Shown here piece after piece: positions 8,043 to 38,159 of a DNA stretch of 39,525 bases. The stretch lies in NCBI GenBank assembly GCA_049298975.1, contig JBAQWP010000095.1:1-39525 (forward strand), written 5' to 3'. Below the pieces are notes generated by a model. That model was not told the DNA's origin and did not search any database. It saw nothing but the letters and a program-made list of their open reading frames with translations. Both the position numbers and the translations under genes were made by a program. Positions within the stretch are counted from its first letter, which is position 1. Each line of letters opens with the position of its first letter. The stretch is from Minisyncoccia bacterium. Lineage in GTDB: Bacteria; Patescibacteriota; Minisyncoccia; Phycocordibacterales; DATDWN01.

Positions 8043-9116
8043 ATGAAGAAAAAAGAAAAAAAGCCTGAGAGAGTGCCAGTAGGCACAGAAAATGTTGAAA
8101 ATACATTGAGAGAAATCCGAACAAAATTCGGGGATGATTCTATAATGATGCTTGGAGACAAACCTCATGTAGACATTGATGCAATTTCTACTGGCTCAAT
8201 CGGACTGGATGCTGCACTCGGAGTGGGCGGACTACCTCGTGGAAGAATCATCGAAATTTTCGGTCCTGAATCTTCAGGTAAAACTACTCTTTCCCTTCAT
8301 GTAGTAGCTGAAGCTCAGAAAAAAGGCGGTATCTGCGCATTCATTGATGCAGAACATGCTATGGACCCTGAGTACGCAAAGCGTCTTGGAGTAAAAATCG
8401 ACCAGCTTCTTATTTCCCAACCAGACAATGGCGAGCAAGCACTAGAAATAGTAGATTCTCTCGTTCGTTCTGGAAAAATTGATGTTATTGTTATTGACTC
8501 TGTAGCTGCGCTCACTCCAAAAGATGAGATTGAAGGTGATATGGGAGCAACCCACGTCGGAAAACAAGCAAGGCTCATGTCTCAGGCCCTAAGAAAGCTT
8601 ACTGCTATCGTTGCTAAGTCAAAAACTATTGTAATTTTCTTAAACCAGATCCGAATGCAAATCGGAGTTATGTTTGGAAACCCGGAAACAACTCCCGGAG
8701 GAAAAGCATTGAAGTTCTACACTTCGGTCAGACTTGATATAAGGAGAATCGCGCAGATAAAGAAAGGTGAAGAAATTATGGGAGGTAGAATTCGAGTAAA
8801 AGTTGTAAAAAACAAAGTAGCCGCTCCGTTCAAACAAACTGAGTTTGACCTTATGTATAACGAGGGTATCTCAAGAGAGGGCGAACTTATTGCTCTTGGC
8901 GAGAAAATGGGTGTTATTTCCAAGACTGGCACTTCCTACTCATACGGTGAAGAGAAGCTAGGGCGAGGCTATGACGCGACACGACAATTCCTAAAGGATA
9001 AAGCAAACAAAAAAATTGCTGATTCAATATTGAAAGAAATAAGAGAAGGACTAAAGAAAAACGGCGGATCTGTTGTGGCTGTAAATGAGACAGAATCTTC
9101 CTCATCTGAAGAATAG
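8043..9116 (+). CDS. recA: Recombinase RecA
   Basis: Walker [10 protein letters not shown], the IDAEHA and [10 protein letters not shown] blocks, and the FLNQIR loop region; full-length RecA pattern. Confidence 0.97.
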
Positions 9117-9340
9117 AAGTTACTCGATTATTATTTCAAAAAGACCGCATAAACTCTGCTGAGTTTTGCTTATCTCGATGTTCTAAGAAAACAATATCCT
9201 CGATACGTAGCCCTTTCGCAAACTCGACTCCGCCTCAAACAGTGCTTCGGGCTAACTTTATCTTCGTCTTTGTTTTCTAAAACATCTGCGAAAGTCTTTT
9301 TGAAATAACAATCTCGCTCAGTTGTGAGAATTTTTGACAG

Positions 9341-9392
9341 CAGAAAACCGGCTCGAGCGCGAGACGGTTCTGCGTCTTCGGCGTCGGCCGGC
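9341..9392 (-). terminator. GC-rich compound hairpin plus U-run after the small high-GC ORF
   Basis: ccggc(9348..9352)/gccgg(9387..9391) outer stem and gagacg-gttctg-cgtctt inner stem, followed on the minus strand by tttt. Confidence 0.45.
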
Positions 9393-9395
9393 ACA

Positions 9396-9584
9396 TTACG
9401 CCTGCGCGATTACTTCTCTCTTGTCGTCTTCGACAGTGACATTGACGACCTCGGCCGATATGACACCACTTATCCTAACGAATGCATTGAGTAGCGCGGT
9501 CGTCGTCAAACTACGCACCACTTCTTTGGCATCATCGTCCTTTGTTGCAAACCGCACCGTAAACGACGCTTCGAATGTCTTCAT
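9396..9584 (-). CDS. Small (62 aa) high-GC orphan protein, unknown function
   Basis: ATG at 9584..9582 is preceded by aggagaattgccg (SD plus 7 nt). Protein MKTFEASFTVRFATKDDDAKEVVRSL...; composition differs strongly from the flanks. The track ORF extends to 9614 but lacks an RBS there. Confidence 0.55.
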   Translation of the reverse strand: MKTFEASFTVRFATKDDDAKEVVRSLTTTALLNAFVRISGVISAEVVNVTVEDDKREVIAQA

Positions 9585-9604
9585 CGGCAATTCTCCTGCC
9601 TCAT

Positions 9605-9633
9605 AAGGTAACATTCAATTTAAAAAGTGTCAA
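9605..9633 (-). promoter_or_regulatory. Candidate sigma70-type promoter for the small high-GC ORF
   Basis: Minus strand: TTGACA (9633..9628), 17 nt spacer, TACCTT (9610..9605). Confidence 0.35.
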
Positions 9634-9791
9634 GCCTAGTTTTTTTGGCTTAAATAGGCTATATTTTAGCCTTACTGAACGAACTTACTTATCCCGTTAG
9701 AAGTATCGGGAATTAGGAGTGGGTTTCGAATTATCAAATTAACTTACGTAGGTGACTAAACACGAAAGTATAGGTCTCTACTTCTAATGGG

Positions 9792-10370
9792 ATGGCAATG
9801 CTAGAATACGACGAAATAAAGGAAAGAAAATATATTGTTTTTAATGGAGAGCCTTGGGAAGTTCTCTCAAGTCATGTTTTTCGAAAGCAACAGAGAAAAC
9901 CTGTTAATGCAACTAAACTCAGAAACCTTATTACTGGTAAAGTAACAGAGCAGTCATTCCACGTATCTGAAAAAGTAGAAGAAGCTGAAATCGACTCAAA
10001 GGAAGCAAAGTTTCTCTTTGCAAACCGAGGACAATTCACCTTTTGTGATCCAAAAAACCCCGCTGATCGCTACACCCTATCTGATACACTTATGGGAGTT
10101 CGTGGAAAATTTTTAAAAGCAAACACTATTATCAGTGTGCTTTCCTTTGAAGAAAAGTTTATTGATATAAGAATGCCAATTAAAGCAGAACTGAAGGTGG
10201 TAGAAGCTCACCCTGCTGTTAAGGGCAACACAGCCCAAGGAGCAACTAAAACAGTTAAGCTTGAGACTGGTGCGGAAATACAAGTCCCGATGTTTATTGA
10301 GGAAGGTGAGATTGTGAGAGTTAATACAGAGACGGGTGAGTATGCTGAACGAGCCACCGCCGGCTTCTAG
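9792..10370 (+). CDS. efp: Translation elongation factor P (divergent modification loop)
   Basis: Three-domain EF-P pattern (KLRNLITGK, ELKVVEAHPAVKGNTAQGATK, IQVPMFIEEGE). The loop reads HVFRKQQRKPV instead of the HVKPGKG type. Confidence 0.9.
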   Translation: MAMLEYDEIKERKYIVFNGEPWEVLSSHVFRKQQRKPVNATKLRNLITGKVTEQSFHVSEKVEEAEIDSKEAKFLFANRGQFTFCDPKNPADRYTLSDTLMGVRGKFLKANTIISVLSFEEKFIDIRMPIKAELKVVEAHPAVKGNTAQGATKTVKLETGAEIQVPMFIEEGEIVRVNTETGEYAERATAGF

Positions 10371-10373
10371 TCG

Positions 10374-10497
10374 CTAAGGTCTTTTTTGCGAATCTCTTGT
10401 TGTTCGCTCCGTTTACTCCATGCGCAGTACTAAGTGTACAGCTTAGTCGCAATACTCACTCACAACTTCGACCTTCGCAAAAAATCCTCTTAGCTTT
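10374..10497 (+). repeat. Palindromic 3'-UTR repeat element, copy C (degenerate), downstream of efp
   Basis: Contains ctccatgcgcagtactaagtgtacagcttagtc. This is the reverse complement of the core of copy B (37272..37304), differing only in the GTAC-loop-GTAC loop. Confidence 0.7.
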
Positions 10498-10498
10498 C

Positions 10499-10526
10499 AA
10501 AAAAATCCCCTCTCGGGGATTTTTTG
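10499..10526. terminator. Bidirectional intrinsic terminator shared by convergent efp and rpsR
   Basis: A-run, atcccc-tctc-ggggat hairpin (10505..10520), T-run. Confidence 0.8.
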
Positions 10527-10527
10527 T

Positions 10528-10651
10528 AAACTTTCATAAACTGAGTGAAGTTCGAAGTTCGCAGATTTTACTTCTGACCAAGCTGTACAAGAGTACTGTG
10601 CGTGGAGGAAGTAAAATCGAGAACAAAGAAATTCGCCAGTTTTGGAAGTTT
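10528..10651 (-). repeat. Palindromic 3'-UTR repeat element, copy A, abutting the rpsR stop codon
   Basis: Aligns end to end with copy B (37224..37349). Termini are aaactttca.aaactgag / agttttggaagttta; internal stem is gattttacttc (10564..10574) / gaagtaaaatc (10608..10618). Confidence 0.8.
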
Positions 10652-10856
10652 ATCTGCTAACGAATGGAAGTAGTCCCATGAAGCGAGAACGTTTAACCGC
10701 CATAGCCAGATTCCTCTGGTGGTGAGCAGTCACTCCAGTTCTTTTTCTGCCAATTATTCTTCCATGAGGATTTAGGAACTTCTTAAGAAGATCCACATCC
10801 TTAAAGTCTATGTACTTTATGTTGTTTTCAGTGAAGTAACACTTTTTAGAATTCAT
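10650..10856 (-). CDS. rpsR: 30S ribosomal protein S18
   Basis: 68 aa with ...YIDFKDVDLLKKFLNPHGRIIGRKRTGV..HQR.LA.AVKR.R; the classic rpsF-ssb-rpsR context. Confidence 0.95.
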   Translation of the reverse strand: MNSKKCYFTENNIKYIDFKDVDLLKKFLNPHGRIIGRKRTGVTAHHQRNLAMAVKRSRFMGLLPFVSR

Positions 10857-20565: not shown

Positions 20566-23500
20566 CTAAAAATCTAGAGTAACTGAGGATGATTCAGCTC
20601 CAGTTTCAAAGTCATATTTTTGTGGATCATTAGAGTACACCGCTCGAACAACTCCGGTCGGAGACTTGATCATTTCGAAATATTTTTCTACTATTTTTCT
20701 CTGTTCTTCCGACAAGCAGAGTGTAATGTTTATATCTTGGCTAGGATTTAGTCCATCCTTCTTGCGAGCATCTTGAATCCCGCGAATAACATCTCGAGCT
20801 ACACCCTCTTCTTTTAGGTCTAATGTAAGTTCAGTATCCAACCAGATATCTGTTTCTAAAGTATCGGTTAGTACAACAGTTTTAACATTTATCTCATCTT
20901 TAATAATCTCAAGCATTTCTGTATTATCTTTCAACTTTTCACTTTTAACTTTTAACTCTTTCAGGGGCTGCCTAACCTTATGTCCTGACTTCTGCCTTAA
21001 CTCTAATGCTTTAGTAACAATCTCACGGACCACCTTCATGTCTTCTAGAATTTTATTATCTATACTCCCCACTTCTGGCCAATCACAAAGATGCACGCTT
21101 TCTGGGTCGCTCTCTACTCTAAGTTTCAGGTACATCCTGTCTGTGAAAAATGGTGTAAATGGAGCCATGTACTTCATAAGATTTAGCAAAACATATTTTG
21201 TAGTTGCTAGTGCTTCGTCTCTCTCCTTTTTATCCTCGGATTTTAGTCTCTCTCGAGATCGTCTTATATACCAAGTCGAAAAATCATTTACGAAATCCCT
21301 TATTGACCTTGTCGCCTCGAATACTTTGTATCTGTCTAAATTTTCCGTTCCGGTGGATATGAGCTCATTTAGTTTCGAAATCACCCATTTATCGAGCACA
21401 TTTTGGCTAGCATCGTGAGCTTCAACATTTTCATCCTTGTAGAGTTCATACAAGGCCAAGATATTGTCTAGTGGATTAAAAACTTTCTTAACTATTTCAT
21501 CTACATTTTTCTCGTCAAAGTTTTTCGAATCCCCAGGTTGATTAACCGAAAACATCCAAAACCTCAAAGTATCTACTCCGTGTTTATCCATCATGATCCA
21601 TGGATCAACAACATTCCCAACTGACTTTGACATCTTCTTGCCTTGACTATCGAGTATATGCCCAAGACATATTACATTTTTAAATGAATTACCTTTACCC
21701 ATTAGTACGCCTATAGCATGTAGCGTATAGAACCATCCTCGAGTCTGATCGATTGCTTCGGAAATATAATCTGCTGGATACAAAATTTCTTTTGTAGAAA
21801 ACGGGTAGTTGTCCTGAGCAAACGGCATCGCACCTGAGTCAAACCAAACATCCATAACCTCTTTTGTTCTGGTTAACTCTTCCCCGTTTTCATCCACCAA
21901 AACAACCTTGTCTATATACGGTCTGTGTAAGTCTAGCTCGTAATTTTCGTTATGTGGAAGTGGAACAAAATTCAGCTCACGTATTTCAGAATTTTTGAGC
22001 GACTCAAGATATTTATTCTTAAGCTCCTCGAACGAGTTTCCTTCCGCGACAAATGAAAGTGCTCTTCCTGTACCAGAATGACTAACTAACATTATTTTCT
22101 TACCTTGGTACTTCGAATCTATTTCATAAAGAAACTCGCCAGCTCTTCTTACTGTTTCCGCAAAACTCTCACCGTCATTAAACTTTTTTGTTGGAGCTTT
22201 CAAATAATCGATGTCATAGAATTTAAGTATTTCTCTTCCCTTACCTTCGAATTCCGAGGCTATCTCCCACTCATGTAACCTGTCATCAAAAATGACCTTA
22301 TCAAAATCAAAACCGTTTTTTTCACAAAATATTTTCGCCGTCTGTTTTGATCTCTCGTATGGAGAACAAAATACCAAGTCTACTTTTTCTTTAAAATTCT
22401 CAGAACTTTCCTCTACTTGTTTTCTGCCATTTTCGGTAAGATTTAATTTGTCATCGTTAGTTAGAATTATTTTGTCACTAACATTGTTTTCCGCCTGACC
22501 GTGTCGCATGACAAAGAATTTATTTCCAGACTTTTTGGTGTGTTTCTTGAGCTCGTCTATTCCACCGATTACTTTGTACTTGCCGTCTTTGTTAATCCAG
22601 ACTGGTAGTGGTGTTCCCCAATACCTCTCTCGACTTATTGCCCAGTCCTTGATTTCTCTAAGCCATTCACCAAAACGCCCCTCCTTTATATATGATGGCT
22701 CCCAATTTATGTTTTCATTCTCTGAAACAAGCTTGTCTCGAAGCGTGGACATGGCGATGTACCATGAGTCCCTTGCATAGTAGATAAGCGGAGTTTTACA
22801 TCTCCAACAGTGTGGGTATGAGTGCTCATACTTTTCCTTTTTGAAAAGCAACCCTCTATGAGCCAAATCCTTTATCACATCCACAGCAACTTCTTCATCT
22901 TTTACAAACCTACCACTAAGAAAGTCCATATCATCCAAGAAATTTCCATCCTCTTTTACCAAATGATGCTTGGGCAAACCTATCTTTGTTCCCAAAACAA
23001 AGTCGTCTTGTCCGTACATAACAGCAGTGTGCACAATGCCTATTCCATCAACGGTTGTGACAAAATCAGCAATATAAACTTTGTACGCTTTTTGAAAAGC
23101 TTCTGGGGATTTATCACCAAACTTTTCTTTCATGAAAGGATAAAGTGGTTCGTATTCCATTCCAGACATTTCACTTCCCTTATGCTCTGCAACAATCTCG
23201 TACTCAACGCCTAGTACTGAAAGTCTCTCTTTTGCTAAAACTAATATTTCTTCACCCTTATCGGTCTTAACTTTTGCTTCTACGTAAACAATATTTTCTC
23301 CGACTGCCAAGGCTACATTTCCTGGAAGTGTCCAAGGGGTTGTGGTCCAAGCAAGAAAGTAACCATTGTCAGTTCCTTTTATTTTAAATTTTGCGGTAAC
23401 CGACAAATCCTTATCATCCTGATATCCTTGAGCAAGTTCGTGTGATGAAAGTGCGGTTCCACATCGAGGACACCAAGGAAGGACTTTGTAGTCCTTATAC

Positions 23501-24009
23501 AAAAGTTTTTTATCCTCAACAGTTTTAAGCACATTCCAAACAGATTCTATGTATGAGTTGTGATATGTAACGTATGGATTTTCTTTATCCACCCAGTAAC
23601 CTATTCTCTCTGTGAATTTGCTCCACAAATCCACATACTCCCAAACACTTTCTTTACATTTTTTATTGAACTCCTCTATACCATAACTCTCAACTTCTTT
23701 TTTACTCTTTAATCCCAAAGCCTTCTCCACCTGTATCTCAACTGGTAGTCCATGTGTATCCCAACCGCCCTTTCTTCGAACATGGAAACCCTGCATAGTT
23801 TTATAACGAGGAATTATATCCTTGAAAGATCGAGCTTCTATGTGGTGTATACCTGGTTTCCCGTTTGCTGTTGGAGGGCCTTCGTAAAACACAAATTCAC
23901 CCTTTGTAGATTTTTTATTCAAGGTTTTCTTAAAAATTTCTTGTTTATTCCAAAACTCGAGAGTTGCCTCCTCGTTTAAAGCTATTTGTGATTTTTTAAC
24001 GTCCTCCAT
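20566..24009 (-). CDS. ileS: Isoleucyl-tRNA synthetase carrying an internal histidine-phosphatase (PGAM-like) domain
   Basis: Class I motifs (PTANGKPGIHH, KMSKSVGN) and the editing-domain block (TTTPWTLPGN). Residues about 496-685 read FFVMRHGQAENN...LTENGRKQ...SPYERSKQTA...VSHSG. Confidence 0.95.
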   Translation of the reverse strand: MEDVKKSQIALNEEATLEFWNKQEIFKKTLNKKSTKGEFVFYEGPPTANGKPGIHHIEARSFKDIIPRYKTMQGFHVRRKGGWDTHGLPVEIQVEKALGLKSKKEVESYGIEEFNKKCKESVWEYVDLWSKFTERIGYWVDKENPYVTYHNSYIESVWNVLKTVEDKKLLYKDYKVLPWCPRCGTALSSHELAQGYQDDKDLSVTAKFKIKGTDNGYFLAWTTTPWTLPGNVALAVGENIVYVEAKVKTDKGEEILVLAKERLSVLGVEYEIVAEHKGSEMSGMEYEPLYPFMKEKFGDKSPEAFQKAYKVYIADFVTTVDGIGIVHTAVMYGQDDFVLGTKIGLPKHHLVKEDGNFLDDMDFLSGRFVKDEEVAVDVIKDLAHRGLLFKKEKYEHSYPHCWRCKTPLIYYARDSWYIAMSTLRDKLVSENENINWEPSYIKEGRFGEWLREIKDWAISRERYWGTPLPVWINKDGKYKVIGGIDELKKHTKKSGNKFFVMRHGQAENNVSDKIILTNDDKLNLTENGRKQVEESSENFKEKVDLVFCSPYERSKQTAKIFCEKNGFDFDKVIFDDRLHEWEIASEFEGKGREILKFYDIDYLKAPTKKFNDGESFAETVRRAGEFLYEIDSKYQGKKIMLVSHSGTGRALSFVAEGNSFEELKNKYLESLKNSEIRELNFVPLPHNENYELDLHRPYIDKVVLVDENGEELTRTKEVMDVWFDSGAMPFAQDNYPFSTKEILYPADYISEAIDQTRGWFYTLHAIGVLMGKGNSFKNVICLGHILDSQGKKMSKSVGNVVDPWIMMDKHGVDTLRFWMFSVNQPGDSKNFDEKNVDEIVKKVFNPLDNILALYELYKDENVEAHDASQNVLDKWVISKLNELISTGTENLDRYKVFEATRSIRDFVNDFSTWYIRRSRERLKSEDKKERDEALATTKYVLLNLMKYMAPFTPFFTDRMYLKLRVESDPESVHLCDWPEVGSIDNKILEDMKVVREIVTKALELRQKSGHKVRQPLKELKVKSEKLKDNTEMLEIIKDEINVKTVVLTDTLETDIWLDTELTLDLKEEGVARDVIRGIQDARKKDGLNPSQDINITLCLSEEQRKIVEKYFEMIKSPTGVVRAVYSNDPQKYDFETGAESSSVTLDF

Positions 24010-24227: not shown

Positions 24228-25262
24228 TTAGTCCCCTCTTACGCTTACTTTCAGAATACCAGAAAAAAACTTTTGCTTCAATCCCCAAGTACTCCCATGA
24301 CTAAGTAATCCCAAGTATGACTGAACTATTTCTCTGCTTGGATTATCTTGCAGTTTCTTCTTCATCCTCCTCTTTGTACTCGTCCTTAGTACTCTGTGAT
24401 ATGGAAAATGTACAAATCCAAGAAAATCTGCTCCTGAAGAGAGTGTTTCGATTGTGACTTTATTTGGGTGAAGTTTAAGTTTCAAATTGTTTTTTAGATA
24501 TATTGCGATATATCGCAATATATTAGTGAGATAGTTTTTATCTTGGGAAAGGACGACGAAATCATCTGCATATCGAATATAGTGTTTTAGTTTCAGCTCT
24601 TGTTTTACATATTGGTCAAACTCATTCATGTAGATGTTTACTAGGAGTTGGGAGGTGAGGTTGCCTAGGGGTAAACCTTTCATATCATGCGATATATCGC
24701 ATGATATGAAATTGGGATTAGTAGTATTAAAGCTTGAGATGACCTGGCTCAGTAACCAGAGAGTGTCGGGGTCTAGGTTGTGATACTTCAGGATGCTGAG
24801 TAGTACTTCGTGATTAATACTTGCAAAGAACTTCCTTACATCACACTTTAGTACCCAACATTGTTTTGTATTGTTTTGACTTACCCTTCTGCCAAAGTCT
24901 CTAAACCTGTTCATGGCACTGTGTGTTCCTTTCCACTTTCTGCATGAGTAGGAGTCGTAGATGAACTTCTTGTCGAAGTGTGGGTAGAGCACTCTGTAGA
25001 TAGCGTGATGAAACAGTCTGTCTCGAACTGTTGCTTTGTGAATGTTTCTTGGTTTTGGGTCGGAGATGTTGAATGCGTGGTAGGGGCCATGGGTGTAGGT
25101 TTTATTTTTCAAATCTTGGTGAAGGTTGTAAACATTTTCTGAAAGGTTTAAAGAAAACTCCATTACATCCTTTTTATGTTTCTTGCCTTTTTCAAACTCT
25201 TCCCAAGCTGAAAATAGGTTTTCAAGCGATACTATTTCTTTGAAAAAATCTTTCTGTTTCAT
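24228..25262 (-). CDS. DGR-type reverse transcriptase
   Basis: 344 aa. The catalytic YADD is encoded at 24561..24572. Motif 4 LGNLTSQ (24648..24668) fits the DGR-specific [ILV]GxxxSQ signature. There is no maturase or endonuclease extension. Confidence 0.9.
   Translation of the reverse strand: MKQKDFFKEIVSLENLFSAWEEFEKGKKHKKDVMEFSLNLSENVYNLHQDLKNKTYTHGPYHAFNISDPKPRNIHKATVRDRLFHHAIYRVLYPHFDKKFIYDSYSCRKWKGTHSAMNRFRDFGRRVSQNNTKQCWVLKCDVRKFFASINHEVLLSILKYHNLDPDTLWLLSQVISSFNTTNPNFISCDISHDMKGLPLGNLTSQLLVNIYMNEFDQYVKQELKLKHYIRYADDFVVLSQDKNYLTNILRYIAIYLKNNLKLKLHPNKVTIETLSSGADFLGFVHFPYHRVLRTSTKRRMKKKLQDNPSREIVQSYLGLLSHGSTWGLKQKFFSGILKVSVRGD
24498..24523. repeat. 26-bp perfect palindrome inside the RT gene
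   Basis: atatattgcgata|tatcgcaatatat; shares the core tgcgatatatcgca with the second palindrome. Confidence 0.9.
24678..24711. repeat. 34-bp perfect palindrome inside the RT gene
   Basis: tttcatatcatgcgata|tatcgcatgatatgaaa; encodes ..FISCDISHDMK.. immediately N-terminal to RT motif 4. Confidence 0.9.
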
Positions 25263-25268
25263 GTTAAA

Positions 25269-25682
25269 ATGCTAACTAAATTAAAACACAAAATAACTAT
25301 GAATGTATCCCCCCCCCGAGAAGCACCTAGGGTTTTAGTAAAAGAGAAAGAGGTATACAAATACTGGGTTACACTCCATAGAGACTTTCCAAAAGTAGAA
25401 AGGTTTGGAATAGGTCAAAAAATTGAGCAAAGTTTTTTGGATTTACTTGAGCTTACTTTTACATCCGTGTATCTTTCGCCAGAACAAAAAATAGTCTTAC
25501 TTGGTAGAACTATTGCAAAAATGGATAACTTAAAATTTTTCATGCAACTAGCTTGGGAAGCCAAACTCATACCAACAGATAAATTTGCAAAGATTTCTCT
25601 GGACTTGGAAGAAATAGGGAGAATGCTGGGTGGATGGAGAAAGGGATTACTAGAGAAAATACAAAAAACTCCGACCGCCTAG
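25269..25682 (+). CDS. avd: Avd-like accessory variability determinant (four-helix-bundle / 23S rRNA intervening-sequence protein family)
   Basis: FPKVERFGIGQKIEQS helix-1/2 motif and C-terminal EEIGRMLGGWRKGL (compare the Bordetella phage Avd EVGRILGSWI motif). The alternative start is 25299. A C9 tract lies at 25309..25317. Confidence 0.8.
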   Translation: MLTKLKHKITMNVSPPREAPRVLVKEKEVYKYWVTLHRDFPKVERFGIGQKIEQSFLDLLELTFTSVYLSPEQKIVLLGRTIAKMDNLKFFMQLAWEAKLIPTDKFAKISLDLEEIGRMLGGWRKGLLEKIQKTPTA

Positions 25683-25698
25683 CCGGAGAAAAATTAGA

Positions 25699-25816
25699 GT
25701 TTCGGGATCACGATGCGATGACGATACTTGCCATTCCAGACGTTCGAGTTCGAGAACCGGTTGACGTTGACGTTCAGATCACGATCATCGACATTCACGT
25801 TCGCAACGAAGATTTT
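25699..25816 (-). repeat. DGR template repeat (TR), noncoding
   Basis: 118 bp aligning without gaps to 26164..26281 (offset 465). 98 positions are identical; all 20 mismatches are T on the + strand, which is A on the minus strand, in this copy. In the target frame it carries six AAC codons at variable positions. Confidence 0.92.
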
Positions 25817-26081
25817 GTGTGATAGTCCCTCCTTGCCACCACCTCTCGAAAAATATCTCGAGGTTGAATTTTACTTGGGACATACAAGTCCACCAGACTA
25901 CCACACCAACTATTTATTTTTTTATTTTATGAAAAAATATCTCCACTCTTTTGCAAGGCAAATCTGAACGCAACCCGACAAAACTCTTGAAAACATTCTC
26001 ATACACCATATTACTGAAGCCTTAACCGCAGTAAACATATGAATGCATCTTAAATTTTATATAATTTTTTACAAAACAAAA

Positions 26082-26122
26082 GCCCTCTGGCACCGACGCG
26101 CGTTGCGTAAGTGTCAGAGGGC
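26082..26122 (-). terminator. GC-rich hairpin plus U-run 3' of the target gene (terminator and/or DGR target-recognition hairpin)
   Basis: gccctctggcac (26082..26093) pairs with gtgtcagagggc (26111..26122): 12 bp with one G-U. It is followed on the minus strand by ttttgttttgt and lies about 40 nt 3' of the VR end. Confidence 0.6.
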
Positions 26123-26152
26123 CAAGGGAACAAAGGGACAGAGCGCCTAGTT

Positions 26153-26806
26153 TCAGGCGGTCTGTTGCGGGACCACGAAGCGATGACGATACCTGCCAAG
26201 CCAGACGAACGAGCGCGAGAACCGGTCGACGTAGACGTACAGATCACGAACAACGACAATCACGCGCGCAACGAAGAGGTTCGAGAGGTCGGGTAGCACA
26301 TTCGGTCCGACCTTGAAAATGAAGAATGTGCCAAATCCCTCCGTACGGAGCTTGTCGCGATGGTCTTCGCAGAACGCGATGACCTGCTTTTGGGTCAAGA
26401 CAAGCTCCGCGATCGGCCTCCCGACCGATTCAAAGATGGTCTGAAAGTTTCCGTTCTGGACCATCTCATGGATCTCGACGATCTGCTTGGGCGTCGTCGT
26501 TTCGTCGAGTTCATCCGTACCCCACGCAACGAAATCGGAGTCGATGTGGCCTGAGAAAACACGGTCTGCGTGAGCAATCGTGCCAGCCCCAGCCAGACGA
26601 CGGATGCTGATCACTTCACCCTCGTACAGACGATGGAGTACACTCTTCATTTTCGGCGCATCGGCTTGGCCTTCGAGCCACGCCTTGATAAGACGCGAGC
26701 GCCCTTCCTCGCCCAGCATGTTGACCTGCTCAGCTGTCAGCCCGTCATCTGCGAACTTGCCGAAAACAAATATCATCTGCTCGATCGAATACGGAAGTGG
26801 AGACAT
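26153..26806 (-). CDS. DGR target protein (217 aa, high GC, no signal peptide, no recognisable C-type lectin motif) with C-terminal variable region
   Basis: The ORF track has 26153..26827 with a GTG start. ATG at 26806 is preferred because of aaaggatggggacgATG (SD plus 8 nt). The VR covers the last roughly 40 codons. Confidence 0.85.
   Translation of the reverse strand: MSPLPYSIEQMIFVFGKFADDGLTAEQVNMLGEEGRSRLIKAWLEGQADAPKMKSVLHRLYEGEVISIRRLAGAGTIAHADRVFSGHIDSDFVAWGTDELDETTTPKQIVEIHEMVQNGNFQTIFESVGRPIAELVLTQKQVIAFCEDHRDKLRTEGFGTFFIFKVGPNVLPDLSNLFVARVIVVVRDLYVYVDRFSRSFVWLGRYRHRFVVPQQTA
26164..26281 (-). repeat. DGR variable repeat (VR)
   Basis: Counterpart of the TR. Encodes ...NLFVARVIVVVRDLYVYVDRFSRSFVWLGRYRHRFVVPQ; the TR frame reads ...KIFVANVNVDDRDLNVNVNRFSNSNVWNGKYRHRIVIPK. 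Confidence 0.92.
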
Positions 26807-26971
26807 CGTCCCCATCCTTTCAGGCACATCGTGCCATTGCTGGCTCAGCGTTATGCTTTGCCACAGCAGAGAAAATCCTCAAAATTGTTACCTTTAGGGC
26901 ACTTTCTGCTATAGCAAAACCCAGACAAACCACTATTTCTCATAAAAATTCAAAGATCAAATTACACAATA

Positions 26972-35953: not shown

Positions 35954-36139
35954 TTAGTCAATATTTAAAACAAATTGTAAAAATTTTCCAAATATGTAAT
36001 CAAAGAAACCAAGATAAAATGAAACAAATATCGAGATAAGAATAACAACGATAGTAAAAGCTACCGCTTGGCTTCTTGTCGGCCAAGCAACGTGCTTAAG
36101 TTCTCCTTGTGTATCTTTTATGTATGTAAGTAATGACAT
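35954..36139 (-). CDS. secE: Preprotein translocase subunit SecE
   Basis: 61 aa from ATG 36139 (MSLLTYIKDTQGELKHVAWPTRSQAVAFTIVVILISIF...), with the single-TM SecE pattern upstream of nusG. The track ORF N-terminal extension is implausible. Confidence 0.8.
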   Translation of the reverse strand: MSLLTYIKDTQGELKHVAWPTRSQAVAFTIVVILISIFVSFYLGFFDYIFGKFLQFVLNID

Positions 36140-36294
36140 GAATGATTTTCTTGAGCAGAGCGATCGGAAAATCATCACCCTGTGAAATAATTTCACTGGG
36201 TAATAGATTATATTCGCTTCGCACATTAATCTATTAAAAAACCCCTCCCGGGGAATCAGTTCTAATAGTACTCCTTTCTAAACATAAGTCAACT

Positions 36295-36356: not shown

Positions 36357-36995
36357 CTAGCTGAGGAGTGAAATCAGGTGTCCGGCCGTCTCGCGACGAG
36401 CGGCGAGAATCTTCTCGCGCTGGGTCTGCGCCGCGACACGGTTGAGCTCGGTTGCCCGAGCATCCTTCGCTTTCTTGGCCACACGCTGAGCCTCTCGTTC
36501 ACGAACAACGCGAACGTTGTCTCGGCGACGCTGTACGACGTCCGCTTCGGCCAAACACTTCTGCATGGCGTTGTGGGCGTCACGCCGCAGGTCGAACGTA
36601 CCATTGGTCTCGAGGCGAACCGCCTCGAGAACCCTGGTGTGAGCCTTGCGAAGCCCGCCGACGATGTCCTCGTCGTAACCCTCTTCGACTCGGAGCCGAA
36701 GCTCCTTGTTGAAGTGGGCCTCGCGAACCATCTGTCCATCATCAGTCATCTGATCGAAGACAGAATTGCGGACGTACTTTCCGAGGATCGAGCGTCCGAC
36801 GGAGACGATGTCTCCACCACGTGCGAGGGCCGTTTTGGCGTCGTTCTGTTCGATGGCCTCGGCCATCTGACGCACCCAACCGGCGACAGGATCACCAACC
36901 TTGAAGTCCATGAAGGACTTCATTGCGGCAATCACCTCCGTCACGCGCTCAACGGACTGCTCAAGGGTGATCTCGTGGCGGGTGGAATTCTTCAT
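36357..36995 (-). CDS. High-GC (about 60-65%) orphan protein, 212 aa, Arg-rich helical C-terminus, unknown function
   Basis: The frame is supported by a strong G/C bias at codon position 3 (hand check) and by ggagaatgcgATG at 36995. Overlapping ORFs on both strands are high-GC shadows. Confidence 0.65.
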   Translation of the reverse strand: MKNSTRHEITLEQSVERVTEVIAAMKSFMDFKVGDPVAGWVRQMAEAIEQNDAKTALARGGDIVSVGRSILGKYVRNSVFDQMTDDGQMVREAHFNKELRLRVEEGYDEDIVGGLRKAHTRVLEAVRLETNGTFDLRRDAHNAMQKCLAEADVVQRRRDNVRVVREREAQRVAKKAKDARATELNRVAAQTQREKILAARRETAGHLISLLS

Positions 36996-37042
36996 CGCAT
37001 TCTCCAACTTTTTCCGATGTTTTTCCCTCAAAGAACGTTATT

Positions 37043-37223: not shown

Positions 37224-37349
37224 AAACTTTCACAAACTGAGATAATTTCGTAGTTCGCAGACCTGAGTTTCGACTAAGCTGTACAAGTAGTACTGCGCAT
37301 GGAGAAACTTAGGTCGAGAACATAGAAATTCGCAAGTTTTGGAAGTTTA
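37224..37349 (-). repeat. Palindromic 3'-UTR repeat element, copy B, abutting the stop of the SIMPL-domain gene
   Basis: Full-length match to copy A. Internal stem is gacctgagtttc (37260..37271) / gaaacttaggtc (37304..37315). Confidence 0.8.
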
Positions 37350-38159
37350 CTACTCCACTTCGTAAGAAAGTGTAACTGTCGAAACAACCTTATTCTCCCC
37401 CACCGGTAACTCTGGAACAATTGGTGCTGCCTCAGCTGACATCACATCTGCCTTCATCATTCCACCTCTAGCATACAATACTGGATAATCACCACCTTCC
37501 TGGAAGTTAACTATCTTATTAAATTTAACACCTAATGACTTTGCTAGAACTTTTGCTTTTGCTTTTGCATCAGAAATAGCTTTATCTCTTGCCTCAGCAT
37601 TAGCAGCATCCATATCATCTACTACAAAACTAAGGCCGGAAATATTTGAAACTCCAAGCTCCCCAACCTTTGTTAGCGCACTGCCAGCATCTGCTGTCTT
37701 TCTTACCTTTACTGAAATTGATTGACTGACTTCATAACCAATGACAACTTGCTTACCTGGAGGACAGTAACCCGCAGAACATAACTCCGTTTTCATATAT
37801 TCATACTTTGGATAAGAATTGTAACTGTCAGTTTTTATATCCTTCTCTGCTATACCTAGTTTTTTCAAAGCCTCTATAACTGTGTTTGATTTCTTGGACG
37901 CCTTATCTTGAGCCTCCTTTACAGTTTTGCCCTCCTCAACTACAGAGTAAGAAAACGAACCTGTATCTGGAACTGTTGTTACTTCTCCTTTACCAGTGAC
38001 AGAAATAACGTTATTGGAATACAAACCCTTACCTATATACTTACCCTCCTTCATAGTATTCAATGTTTCAAAAGCAAGAAATGCTGCAAGAAATACCAGT
38101 GTTATAAACACTACATTAAATAATCTCTTCTTTTGAACTTCGTTTAAATATTGATACAT
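37350..38159 (-). CDS. SIMPL-domain (DUF541) secreted/periplasmic protein
   Basis: N-terminal TM/signal anchor and typical DUF541 blocks (ISVTGKGEVTTVPD, KDIKTDSYNSYP, ISGLSFVVDD). Confidence 0.8.
   Translation of the reverse strand: MYQYLNEVQKKRLFNVVFITLVFLAAFLAFETLNTMKEGKYIGKGLYSNNVISVTGKGEVTTVPDTGSFSYSVVEEGKTVKEAQDKASKKSNTVIEALKKLGIAEKDIKTDSYNSYPKYEYMKTELCSAGYCPPGKQVVIGYEVSQSISVKVRKTADAGSALTKVGELGVSNISGLSFVVDDMDAANAEARDKAISDAKAKAKVLAKSLGVKFNKIVNFQEGGDYPVLYARGGMMKADVMSAEAAPIVPELPVGENKVVSTVTLSYEVE

What the first reader, a model, noticed from the sequence alone, without database searches (positions are those of the whole stretch)
26153..26806. DGR target does not look like a C-type lectin: small, leaderless-looking, high-GC protein with alternating variable residues on predicted beta strands
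Most described DGR targets place the VR in a CLec/FGE-type fold, often ending in a GFRC-like motif. Here the VR region in the TR frame reads FVANVNVDDRDLNVNVNRFSNSNVWNGKYRHRIVIP. Variable Asn/Asp/Ile/Lys codons alternate with fixed hydrophobic Val/Phe, as in a surface of two or three beta strands, and no CLec hallmark is present. The protein has about 217 aa and no signal peptide or TM segment, so diversification may act on an intracellular or non-classically exported binder. I recognise no family for the N-terminal roughly 175 aa. My hand counts on sample lines give about 53-58% GC, against about 35% for neighbouring genes.
Basis: partly seen in the sequence, partly recalled or inferred. Interest (0 to 1): 0.8.

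Follow-up and report, generated by a model that had tools for sequence, protein, structure and literature searches.

The report
Hypervariable small protein, unrecognised fold
A tiny symbiotic bacterium uses a retroelement to rewrite about 17 codons at the end of a small soluble protein whose fold matches no solved structure, so nature's strongest protein-diversifying system may use a second scaffold besides the C-type lectin fold.

Summary
Window 24228-26806 is a complete diversity-generating retroelement (DGR) in a Minisyncoccia (Patescibacteria) genome. It has a reverse transcriptase, an Avd gene on the opposite strand, a TR (25699-25812), a VR (26164-26277) and a 217-aa target. All 20 TR/VR differences lie at TR adenines.

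The target is not an isolated oddity. It belongs to a Patescibacteria family of at least 2,359 clusters (50% identity) with no Pfam model. Sixteen near-identical natural alleles differ almost only at the VR codons.

AlphaFold models are confident (pLDDT 90.7; domain alone 95.1). The variable residues alternate on a beta hairpin, the following loop and the last strand. Foldseek finds no significant match in PDB or BFVD. Pfam, a profile search of PDB sequences and hhalign against the Mtd family are all negative. No signal peptide or membrane segment is present in about 97% of 200 members.

One caveat remains. The order of secondary-structure elements equals that of a compact C-type lectin-like domain, and such domains are the only fold recurring among the sub-threshold hits (TM up to 0.43). 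A very divergent lectin fold is therefore not excluded.

The high GC is real and recurs across the family: 42 of 44 loci, median +10 points. It is unexplained.

The parts
26153..26806 (-). DGR target gene (217 aa plus stop; NCBI WAW92_04235, annotated hypothetical protein). An alternative GTG start lies at 26827.
   Evidence: ORF list. AAAGGA ribosome-binding site 9 nt upstream of the ATG. Identical to P0001. GC 55.8%.
26657..26806 (-). N-terminal region, residues 1-50: three short helices, poorly conserved across the family.
   Evidence: AlphaFold helices 8-20, 25-29 and 32-44 with pLDDT 74-83. These alignment columns are variable and gappy.
26156..26656 (-). Conserved alpha/beta domain, residues 51-217. 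It defines the family and carries the VR at its C-terminus.
   Evidence: Domain-only AlphaFold model: pLDDT 95.1, pTM 0.91. Profile matches in 2,359 clusters cover this part. No significant Foldseek match.
26164..26277 (-). Variable region (VR), codons 177-214. It covers strand 177-185, a turn, strand 188-195, a loop and strand 209-213. The homology extends 1-4 nt further 5' if adenine mismatches are allowed.
   Evidence: Repeat D1. All differences lie at TR adenines. Codon and secondary-structure map.
26140..26163 (-). Hairpin AGACCGCCT-GAAACT-AGGCGCTCT, starting 4 nt after the last TR/VR homology (CCGCAAC) and overlapping the stop codon. It is a candidate target-recognition hairpin.
   Evidence: DNA fold of this 76-nt stretch: -7.8 kcal/mol, not better than shuffles on its own (z -0.38). 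A hairpin sits at the same position in L001, L005 and L008, and more weakly in L002.
26072..26122 (-). Intrinsic terminator of the target gene (GCCCTCTG...CAGAGGGC followed by TTTTGTTTTG).
   Evidence: Read directly from the sequence. The same TCCCTCTGA...TCAGAGGGA-plus-T-run element follows the homologous gene in 6 of the 8 loci, including three of the four without a nearby RT (L003, L005, L009); L006 and L008 have a different hairpin.
25813..26036 (-). Conserved structured non-coding domain directly 5' of the TR. It contains CGGTTAAGGC, a TTTTGY/RCAAAA hairpin, an invariant AGTTGGTG and a 12-bp long-range helix (GTGTGGTAGTC / GACTATCACAC).
   Evidence: Alignments of 4 and 46 loci with many compensatory pairs. 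Sub-threshold Rfam RT-9 match at 25908-26036: 33.2 bits against a gathering score of 46.1.
25699..25812 (-). Template repeat (TR). It has 29 adenines in the VR frame, 28 of them at codon positions 1-2, and eight AAY codons.
25662..25688 (-). Hairpin CTCCGGC...GGTCGGAG plus U-run, 10 nt after the TR. It is terminator-like and probably marks the 3' end of the TR RNA. It overlaps the 3' end of avd on the opposite strand.
   Evidence: Sequence. Conserved with compensatory changes in 46 loci (A9 columns 472-475 / 510-513).
25269..25682 (+). Avd accessory protein gene, on the strand opposite to the TR, the RT and the target.
   Evidence: Pfam bAvd 2.5e-13, above its cut-off (50.9 vs 40 bits). NCBIfam DivGenRetAVD 8.5e-18, below its curated cut-off (64.6 vs 80 bits). 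Same inverted position in L001 and L002 and in nearly all of 44 genomes.
24228..25262 (-). DGR reverse transcriptase (344 aa).
   Evidence: Pfam RVT_1 1.5e-25. Motifs LGNLTSQ at residue 199 and YADD at residue 231.

Best explanation
This is an intact DGR cassette of the Patescibacteria-specific type.

How the cassette most likely works:
- The TR is transcribed as part of a discrete RNA. That RNA has a structured 5' domain, the TR, and a 3' hairpin with a U-run.
- The reverse transcriptase, with Avd, copies the TR and misincorporates opposite adenines.
- The cDNA replaces the VR at the 3' end of the target gene.

What is rewritten:
- Seventeen codons (177-212) can vary, giving about 2x10^15 possible proteins.
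- The variable side chains are at i, i+2 positions of a beta hairpin (181, 183, 185, 186 / 190, 192, 194), in the following loop (198, 200, 203, 205) and on the last strand (210, 212).
- The intervening Val, Leu, Phe and Trp residues are fixed and pack against a conserved IDSDF segment. One face of a small sheet therefore becomes a programmable binding surface.

What the target is:
- The scaffold is a 165-residue alpha/beta domain of a large Patescibacteria family. It shows no detectable relationship to the CLec/FGE scaffolds of known DGR variable proteins.
- The protein works like Mtd or TvpA, as a hypervariable ligand binder, but on a different-looking scaffold.
- Almost no family member has an export signal, so it most likely acts as a soluble cytoplasmic recognition module. 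Export by an unrecognised route is the alternative.

Shown: the cassette anatomy, the adenine-specific differences, natural diversification in the family, and the lack of sequence or structure matches.
Inferred: the single exposed variable face, the binding function and the cellular location.
For: Cassette:
- RT, Avd, TR and VR are all present.
- 20 of 20 TR/VR mismatches are at TR adenines.
- The RT carries the motifs LGNLTSQ and YADD.
- The same gene order is found in L001, L002 and L006.
- In 44 species-level genomes, 754 of 798 mismatches are at TR adenines.

Natural diversification:
- Sixteen alleles that are 87-100% identical have all 13 hypervariable columns inside residues 176-203.
- Mean column entropy is 0.96 bits in the VR against 0.12 bits elsewhere.

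Family size: 54 relatives by profile search and 2,359 clusters by exhaustive HMM search, none with a Pfam domain among those where precomputed Pfam is shown.

Structure:
- Model confidence is pLDDT 90.7 (full length) and 95.1 (domain).
- Variable codons map to strands 177-185, 188-195 and 209-213.
- Residue covariation in 192 sequences supports contacts of fixed V182, L189 and V191 with segment 85-91. It also supports the beta2-beta3 and beta3-beta4 hairpins.

No CLec link.

No export signal: only about 6 of 200 members have an N-terminal hydrophobic window.

Repertoire size.
Against: - The order of secondary-structure elements is that of a compact C-type lectin-like domain. Such domains recur among weak Foldseek hits, so 'different scaffold' may mean 'very divergent CLec'.
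- No variation of this particular gene was seen. The only other copy in the databases has the same VR.
- The hairpin after the VR is not more stable than shuffled sequence in the window.
- No ligand, partner gene or effector domain was found, so the binding function and cytoplasmic location are inference.
Confidence: 0.6

Rival explanations
1. The C-terminal domain is a highly divergent, compact C-type lectin-like (CLec) fold. On this reading the target is an ordinary DGR variable protein whose lectin scaffold has drifted beyond detection, as Roux et al. 2021 predicted for CPR targets.
For: - The element order is strand 108-115, helices 121-126, 132-135 and 139-148, then strands 160-165, 177-185, 188-195 and 209-213. 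This equals beta1-alpha1-alpha2-beta2-beta3-beta4-beta5.
- In most family members beta2 and beta3 are joined by a short turn, as in compact forms.
- Mincle, NKR-P1A, NKp80, EMS16 and rhodocetin recur among the sub-threshold hits, with 111-131 aligned columns and TM up to 0.43.
- Weak covariation links beta1 with beta5: pairs 109-208 and 108-203.
- The VR covers beta3-beta4, which is the ligand-binding side of lectin-like domains (my own knowledge, not tested here).
- Prediction stated in PMC8144416.
Against: - All these hits have E 0.8-10, probability at most 0.14, RMSD 6-10 A and TM below 0.5.
- No DGR CLec structure or FGE is among the matches listed.
- No Lectin_C, FGE-sulfatase or DUF1566 hit in any of 57 members at E<=10.
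- hhalign against Mtd gives probability 0.15%.
- There is no GFRC-like C-terminal motif and no conserved cysteines.
Confidence: 0.35
2. The protein is an extracellular or surface-displayed adhesin of an episymbiont, exported by a route that leaves no classical signal. Diversification then serves attachment to host cells.
For: - Most characterised DGR targets are surface or phage receptor-binding proteins. Cell-cell and virus-cell interaction is the main role proposed by Roux et al. (the section heading, and the passage).
- Patescibacteria live attached to hosts (PMC11665869 abstract).
- A few family members (about 6 of 200) do have an N-terminal hydrophobic stretch.
Against: - About 97% of 200 diverse members lack any N-terminal hydrophobic segment.
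- There is no lipobox, cell-wall anchor or pilin-like N-terminus.
- No secretion genes are conserved next to the cassette. The neighbours are unrelated housekeeping genes.
- The Sec system is present in this genome (SecE at 35954-36226), so classical signals should be recognisable.
Confidence: 0.3
3. The GC-rich target gene is recently acquired foreign DNA or an assembly chimera, and the DGR is a decaying relic.
For: - The 17-20 point GC jump has sharp edges at both ORF ends.
- Two other GC-rich patches with unassigned ORFs lie in the same window.
Against: - The same excess occurs in 42 of 44 independent genomes, with a median of +10.4 points. This holds even between targets only about 50% identical.
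- The TR, which sits outside the gene in host-like DNA, matches the VR.
- All three genes are intact, with catalytic motifs.
- Near-identical alleles in other lineages are actively diversified.
Confidence: 0.03

Closest known systems
CLec-fold DGR variable proteins (Mtd of Bordetella phage BPP-1, TvpA, AvpA, TaqVP, LdtA)
   Same: - The VR lies at the extreme C-terminus of the target.
- Differences are adenine-only, with AAY codons that cannot become stop codons.
- A hairpin follows the VR, and the cassette includes RT plus Avd.
- Fixed hydrophobic residues hold a static scaffold, while the variable ones are presumed to be exposed.
   Different: - No sequence, profile or significant Foldseek similarity.
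- The variable residues sit at alternating positions of regular beta strands rather than mostly in loops. The comparison with the Mtd structure is from my own knowledge.
- No GFRC-type ending, no trimerisation or N-terminal tail-fibre part, and no signal peptide or lipobox.
Targets of Patescibacteria (CPR) clade-2 DGRs, as catalogued by Paul et al. 2017 and Roux et al. 2021
   Same: Same phylum, cellular DGR, small targets without recognisable membrane or conserved domains (PMC8144416). This family is very probably among their unannotated target clusters.
   Different: Those surveys left the VR domain unassigned and expected it to be a new C-Lec variant. Here a confident model is compared with solved structures, and the family size, natural allele variation and strand-face pattern are documented. 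I could not read Paul et al. 2017 (not held), so overlap with their clusters is unchecked.
Compact C-type lectin-like domains (NKp80, NKR-P1A, Mincle, snake-venom lectin-like chains)
   Same: Same order of secondary-structure elements. They are the best recurring sub-threshold structural neighbours.
   Different: TM at most 0.43, RMSD 6-10 A and no conserved cysteines. The extra N-terminal subdomain (residues 51-107) packs on helix 139-152.
Intracellular DGR-diversified sensors of multicellular bacteria (Dore et al. 2024, PMC10907252)
   Same: DGR targets that are proposed to act inside the cell.
   Different: According to that paper's abstract these belong to conflict systems. My own recollection is that the VR there is a CLec domain fused to NTPase and effector domains. 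The protein here is a stand-alone 217-aa protein with no effector domain.

Membership tests
Diversity-generating retroelement (DGR) | TR/VR repeat pair whose differences fall at adenines of the TR | tested here: met
   20 of 20 differences at TR adenines over 118 nt. 754 of 798 in 44 related loci.
Diversity-generating retroelement (DGR) | Adjacent reverse transcriptase of the DGR type | tested here: met
   RVT_1 at 1.5e-25. Motif LGNLTSQ (the [ILV]GxxxSQ signature, recalled from my own knowledge) and YADD. No phylogenetic placement was made.
Diversity-generating retroelement (DGR) | Avd accessory gene | tested here: met
   Pfam bAvd at 50.9 bits, above its 40-bit cut-off. NCBIfam DivGenRetAVD at 64.6 bits, below its 80-bit cut-off. 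Unusually, the gene lies on the opposite strand.
Diversity-generating retroelement (DGR) | VR at the 3' end of a target ORF, followed by a homing-initiation sequence (IMH) and a hairpin | tested here: inconclusive
   The VR ends 9 nt before the stop codon. A fixed TR/VR difference (AAA in TR, CAA in every VR examined except L002, which has CAT) marks the 3' boundary. A hairpin starts 4 nt later, but its energy is not better than shuffles in the window (z -0.38). Hairpins sit at the same place in several homologous loci.
Diversity-generating retroelement (DGR) | Ongoing diversification of the VR | tested here: inconclusive
   Shown for close relatives in the family: 16 alleles with variation confined to VR codons. 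Not shown for this gene. The one other database copy has an identical VR.
CLec-fold DGR variable proteins | Sequence signature of a CLec-type domain (FGE-sulfatase, DUF1566, Lectin_C or Mtd C-terminal domain) | tested here: not met
   No such Pfam hit in the window protein or in any of 57 members at E<=10. The family profile found nothing among PDB sequences. hhalign against a 31-sequence Mtd alignment gave probability 0.15%.
CLec-fold DGR variable proteins | Three-dimensional CLec fold carrying the VR | tested here: inconclusive
   Foldseek with models of pLDDT 90.7 and 95.1 found nothing at E<=0.001. No Mtd, TvpA, TaqVP or FGE hit is among the matches listed. Only lectin-like domains appear, at E 0.8-10 and TM 0.30-0.43. 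The element order is compatible with the fold.
CLec-fold DGR variable proteins | Variable residues forming one solvent-exposed site | not testable with these tools
   Inferred only. It rests on the i, i+2 alternation on strands and on covariation of the fixed residues with the conserved segment 85-91.
Ig-like-fold DGR targets | VR inside a beta-sandwich Ig-like domain | tested here: not met
   The model is mixed alpha/beta with four helices in the domain. One antibody Fab complex (8fl1_I) appears as a weak hit (E 2.2, TM 0.13), but Ig domains do not recur among the Foldseek hits. Roux et al. also re-assigned the earlier Ig claims.
Patescibacteria small DGR-target family (unnamed, defined here) | Conserved 165-aa domain ending FVAxVxV..GxLxVxVxRF...VW.....R.VVPQ, with the TR 256-465 nt downstream | tested here: met
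   The window protein is the seed. 54 relatives at E of 3.6e-24 or better, 2,359 clusters and 44 genomes with the same layout. 36 of the 44 are labelled as Patescibacteria lineages, and none carries a high-GC phylum label.

The most novel reading that the evidence does not exclude
The C-terminal domain is a genuinely new natural scaffold for massive sequence variation: a flat beta-sheet paratope on a 165-residue cytoplasmic protein. [quoted passage not shown] The sharply bounded GC-rich composition of the target gene would reflect a process specific to these targets.
Probability: 0.4. Interest if true: 0.75.

Novelty: new variant of a known kind. Interest (0 to 1): 0.6.

Why it matters
- Every DGR variable protein solved so far uses a C-type lectin fold. 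The largest survey (Roux et al. 2021) assumed that unassigned VR domains are further variants of that fold. A large, compact, confidently modelled family that resists this assignment makes the assumption directly testable with one crystal structure.
- If the fold is distinct, it is a second evolutionary solution for tolerating about 10^15 variants. It is also a small, cysteine-poor, soluble scaffold of interest for binder engineering.
- It bears on an open question stated in the literature: whether the candidate phyla radiation has DGR targets that are not membrane-bound. Here about 97% of 200 members lack any export signal.
- If the domain turns out to be a derived lectin fold, the result is still useful. 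It would name a Pfam-less family of at least 2,359 clusters and define its VR register.

Tried and rejected
1. The search for related loci with alignments A3 and A2 failed because no conserved 7-10 column stretch exists. It was replaced by exact-protein look-ups and a TR-pattern scan.
2. The 17-base TR pattern also hits by chance in high-GC genomes. Only loci that also encode the family domain were kept.
3. Hypothesis: the GC excess reflects adenine avoidance in the whole target gene. Rejected. In 29 loci, third-position A and T are depleted equally (log2 -0.77 and -0.66). A is more depleted than T in only 11 of 29 (p = 0.26).
4. Hypothesis: the GC excess is a one-off horizontal transfer. Rejected by its recurrence in 42 of 44 genomes.
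5. Trimming the model to the domain, to sharpen Foldseek, gave the same weak hits and no gain.
6. Mtd sequence and Mtd-family profile against the family profile gave nothing.
7. Search for fused domains in longer members found only tandem copies of the same domain and one DUF3536 fusion, with no functional clue.
8. No partner gene is conserved around the cassette.
9. Paul et al. 2017 could not be read because it is not held.
10. Mean-field covariation analysis supports the model's local contacts but is too weak to fix the full sheet order.

Full report
**What is there**

The window comes from a Minisyncoccia (Patescibacteria) metagenome-assembled genome. A complete DGR sits between isoleucyl- and arginyl-tRNA synthetase genes. 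All parts are read on the minus strand unless noted.
- Target gene: 26806-26153.
- Intrinsic terminator: 26122-26072.
- Conserved non-coding stretch of about 220 nt.
- TR: 25812-25699.
- Short hairpin with a U-run.
- Avd gene, on the plus strand: 25269-25682.
- Reverse transcriptase (RT): 25262-24228.

The TR/VR pair is the only long repeat in the window. All 20 differences over 118 nt are at TR adenines. The RT has the motifs LGNLTSQ and YADD. The last difference, TR AAA against VR CAA at codon 214, recurs in three of the four TR-linked loci first compared (L002 has CAT). It is probably the fixed boundary of homing rather than a mutagenised site.

- The TR translation matches letter for letter.
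- Eighteen codons carry adenines, and fifteen differ between TR and VR. Eight are AAY, each giving 15 amino acids and no stop codon. Only AAG at codon 205 can become a stop. The 17 codons from 177 to 212 allow about 2x10^15 proteins.
- The alternation is real and falls on predicted strands.
  - Variable: 181, 183, 185, 186, 190, 192, 194 in the hairpin. Also 198, 200, 203, 205 in the loop, and 210, 212 on the last strand.
  - Fixed: V182, V184, L189, V191, V193, F196, W202, V211.
- GC is 55.8% (GC3 68%) against 36-38% in the neighbouring genes, RT and Avd included. The block has sharp edges at both ends of the ORF.
- Neither start codon gives an N-terminal hydrophobic segment.

**The protein belongs to a large family**

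- A single-sequence search found 7 relatives. A profile search found 54, all unnamed or labelled Patescibacteria, Parcubacteria, Paceibacterota or Nomurabacteria, and none with a Pfam domain.
- An exhaustive HMM search of representatives at 50% identity found 2,359 clusters at E<=0.001 and 740 at E<=1e-30.
- The conserved part is residues 51-217. The N-terminal 50 residues vary in length and sequence.
- Some members carry two or three tandem copies of the domain.
- In L001, L002 and L006/L007 the gene sits in the same cassette as here. In L003/L004, L005, L008 and L009 no TR or RT lies within 5 kb.
- A scan of species-representative genomes with the TR's first 18 bases was filtered with the family HMM and gave 44 genomes with target plus TR.
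  - The TR starts 256-465 nt after the stop codon.
  - 754 of 798 TR/VR mismatches are at TR adenines.
  - Avd is inverted in nearly all of them.
  - 36 of the 44 are labelled as Patescibacteria lineages. The rest are 'uncultured bacterium' or two low-GC bins labelled Gammaproteobacteria.

**Diversification is active in the family**

Two 90%-identity clusters supplied 16 full-length alleles from different samples, 87-100% identical to one another. All 13 columns with four or more residue types lie between residues 176 and 203. They are in the same register as the window's adenine codons. Mean column entropy is 0.96 bits in the VR against 0.12 bits elsewhere. For the window's own gene, only one other copy exists, and it has the same VR.

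**Is it a C-type lectin fold?**

Sequence level: no.
- Pfam on 57 members at E<=10 returned no lectin, FGE-sulfatase or DUF1566 family.
- The family profile found nothing among PDB sequences.
- PHROGs and PADLOC returned nothing.
- hhalign against Mtd alone, and against a 31-sequence Mtd CLec alignment, gave probabilities of 0.04% and 0.15%.

Structure level: unresolved.
- AlphaFold2 with the 57-sequence alignment gave pLDDT 90.7 and pTM 0.80. The domain alone gave pLDDT 95.1 and pTM 0.91.
- Foldseek found nothing at E<=0.001 in PDB (two searches) or in BFVD. No DGR variable protein or FGE is among the matches listed.
- However, the element order is that of a compact C-type lectin-like domain: strand 108-115, three helices, then strands 160-165, 177-185, 188-195 and 209-213.
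- Mincle, NKR-P1A, NKp80, EMS16 and rhodocetin recur among the sub-threshold hits, with 111-131 aligned columns, TM 0.30-0.43 and RMSD 6-10 A.
- A mean-field covariation analysis on 192 sequences supports several contacts:
  - the beta2-beta3 and beta3-beta4 hairpins;
  - packing of segment 56-83 on helix 139-152;
  - contacts of the fixed V182, L189 and V191 with the conserved segment 85-91;
  - only a weak link between beta1 and beta5.
- I put about 0.35 on 'very divergent lectin fold' and about 0.4 on 'distinct scaffold'. The remainder is left undecided.

**How it most likely works**

- Shown: the cassette parts and the adenine-specific rewriting of the C-terminal codons.
- Inferred from alternation and covariation: the fixed hydrophobic residues of the hairpin face the conserved IDSDF segment. 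The variable residues then face outward on the other side of the sheet. Together with the loop and the last strand they would form one binding surface.
- Inferred from the absence of export signals in about 194 of 200 members, and from the presence of Sec components in the genome: the protein is soluble and probably cytoplasmic. Export by an unrecognised route remains possible.
- No partner gene, effector domain or ligand was found, so the biological target of binding is unknown.
- Roux et al. 2021 list exactly this as unresolved for clade-2 CPR targets.

**The GC excess**

- It is a family trait. The non-VR part of the target is richer in GC than the rest of its locus in 42 of 44 genomes. The median excess is +10.4 points and the maximum +21.9.
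- Against the adjacent RT gene in 29 loci, third-position C nearly doubles (0.33 against 0.18) and G rises. A and T fall equally. This is not adenine avoidance.
- A single transfer cannot explain the recurrence.
- Expression-linked codon bias, repeated exchange of the target-plus-TR module, and GC-biased conversion linked to homing all remain untested.

**Comparison with what is known, and novelty**

- The element is a bona fide DGR. The target family is very probably among the unannotated CPR target clusters of earlier surveys (PMC8144416; Paul et al. 2017 could not be read). The finding is therefore not a new kind of system.
- New here:
  - a confident model that fails to match any solved fold;
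  - placement of the variable residues on regular strands;
  - the family's size, distribution and VR register;
  - the natural allele series;
  - the generality of the GC island.
- I rate it a new variant of a known kind. The main uncertainty can be resolved by one coordinate-level comparison or one structure.

Noticed in passing
window 25813-26036 (minus strand); alignment A9 of 46 loci: A structured non-coding domain lies directly 5' of the TR and is conserved across Patescibacteria DGRs. Its 12-bp long-range helix has many compensatory pairs (one pair reads GC:22, AU:18, GU:6, none broken). It also has three small hairpins and an invariant AGTTGGTG. The window gives only a sub-threshold Rfam RT-9 (RF03080) match: 33.2 bits against a gathering score of 46.1. 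No gathering-level hit was found in 12 related loci.
   Followed up: partly
window 25269-25682 (plus strand) against TR 25699-25812 and RT 24228-25262 (minus strand): Avd is encoded antisense between the TR and the RT. Its stop codon lies 16 nt from the TR end, and its start lies 6 nt from the RT start codon (divergent). The TR's 3' hairpin with its U-run overlaps the avd 3' end. The same layout occurs in L001, L002 and nearly all of 44 genomes. The TR RNA therefore seems to be a separate transcript of about 370 nt, with its structured part upstream of the TR rather than downstream.
   Followed up: partly
window 26072-26122; L001-L009 just after the target stop codon: The intrinsic terminator after the target gene is conserved in sequence (TCCCTCTGA...TCAGAGGGA plus a T-run). 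This holds across distant lineages, including three of the four loci that have no TR or RT nearby (L003, L005, L009).
   Followed up: partly
L003/L004, L005, L008, L009: Family members occur with no TR, Avd or RT within 5 kb on long contigs. They may be diversified in trans from a distant cassette, or they may be fixed copies. This was not resolved.
   Followed up: no
proteins P0058 (476 aa), P0059 (560 aa), P0061 (360 aa), P0167 (365 aa): Some family members contain two or three tandem copies of the domain, each ending in a VR-like motif. One member is fused to DUF3536.
   Followed up: partly
window 36357-37031 (minus strand): A second sharply GC-rich ORF (224 aa, 59% GC, GC3 70%) lies between secE and a SIMPL-family gene. 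It has no Pfam, PHROG or PADLOC match. It has no repeat relationship to the DGR.
   Followed up: partly
window about 9170-9620: A third GC-rich patch (about 50% GC) lies between recA and efp. It has two small minus-strand ORFs (72 and 74 aa) without Pfam matches. The RNA fold z-score is -2.8 over 651 nt. No Rfam match lies in this patch: the one hit in the 9100-10800 scan, a spurious miRNA family, falls at 10414-10609.
   Followed up: partly
window 10413-10663 and 37224-37360: Intergenic repeats of 81-90% identity occur in direct and inverted orientation. A long hairpin at 10414-10609 was picked up as a spurious miRNA-family match. This may be a small repeated element.
   Followed up: no
window 20566-24009 (minus strand): The isoleucyl-tRNA synthetase (1,147 aa) carries a histidine-phosphatase domain inserted within its catalytic domain (His_Phos_1, residues 499-665, E 2.8e-27).
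   Followed up: partly
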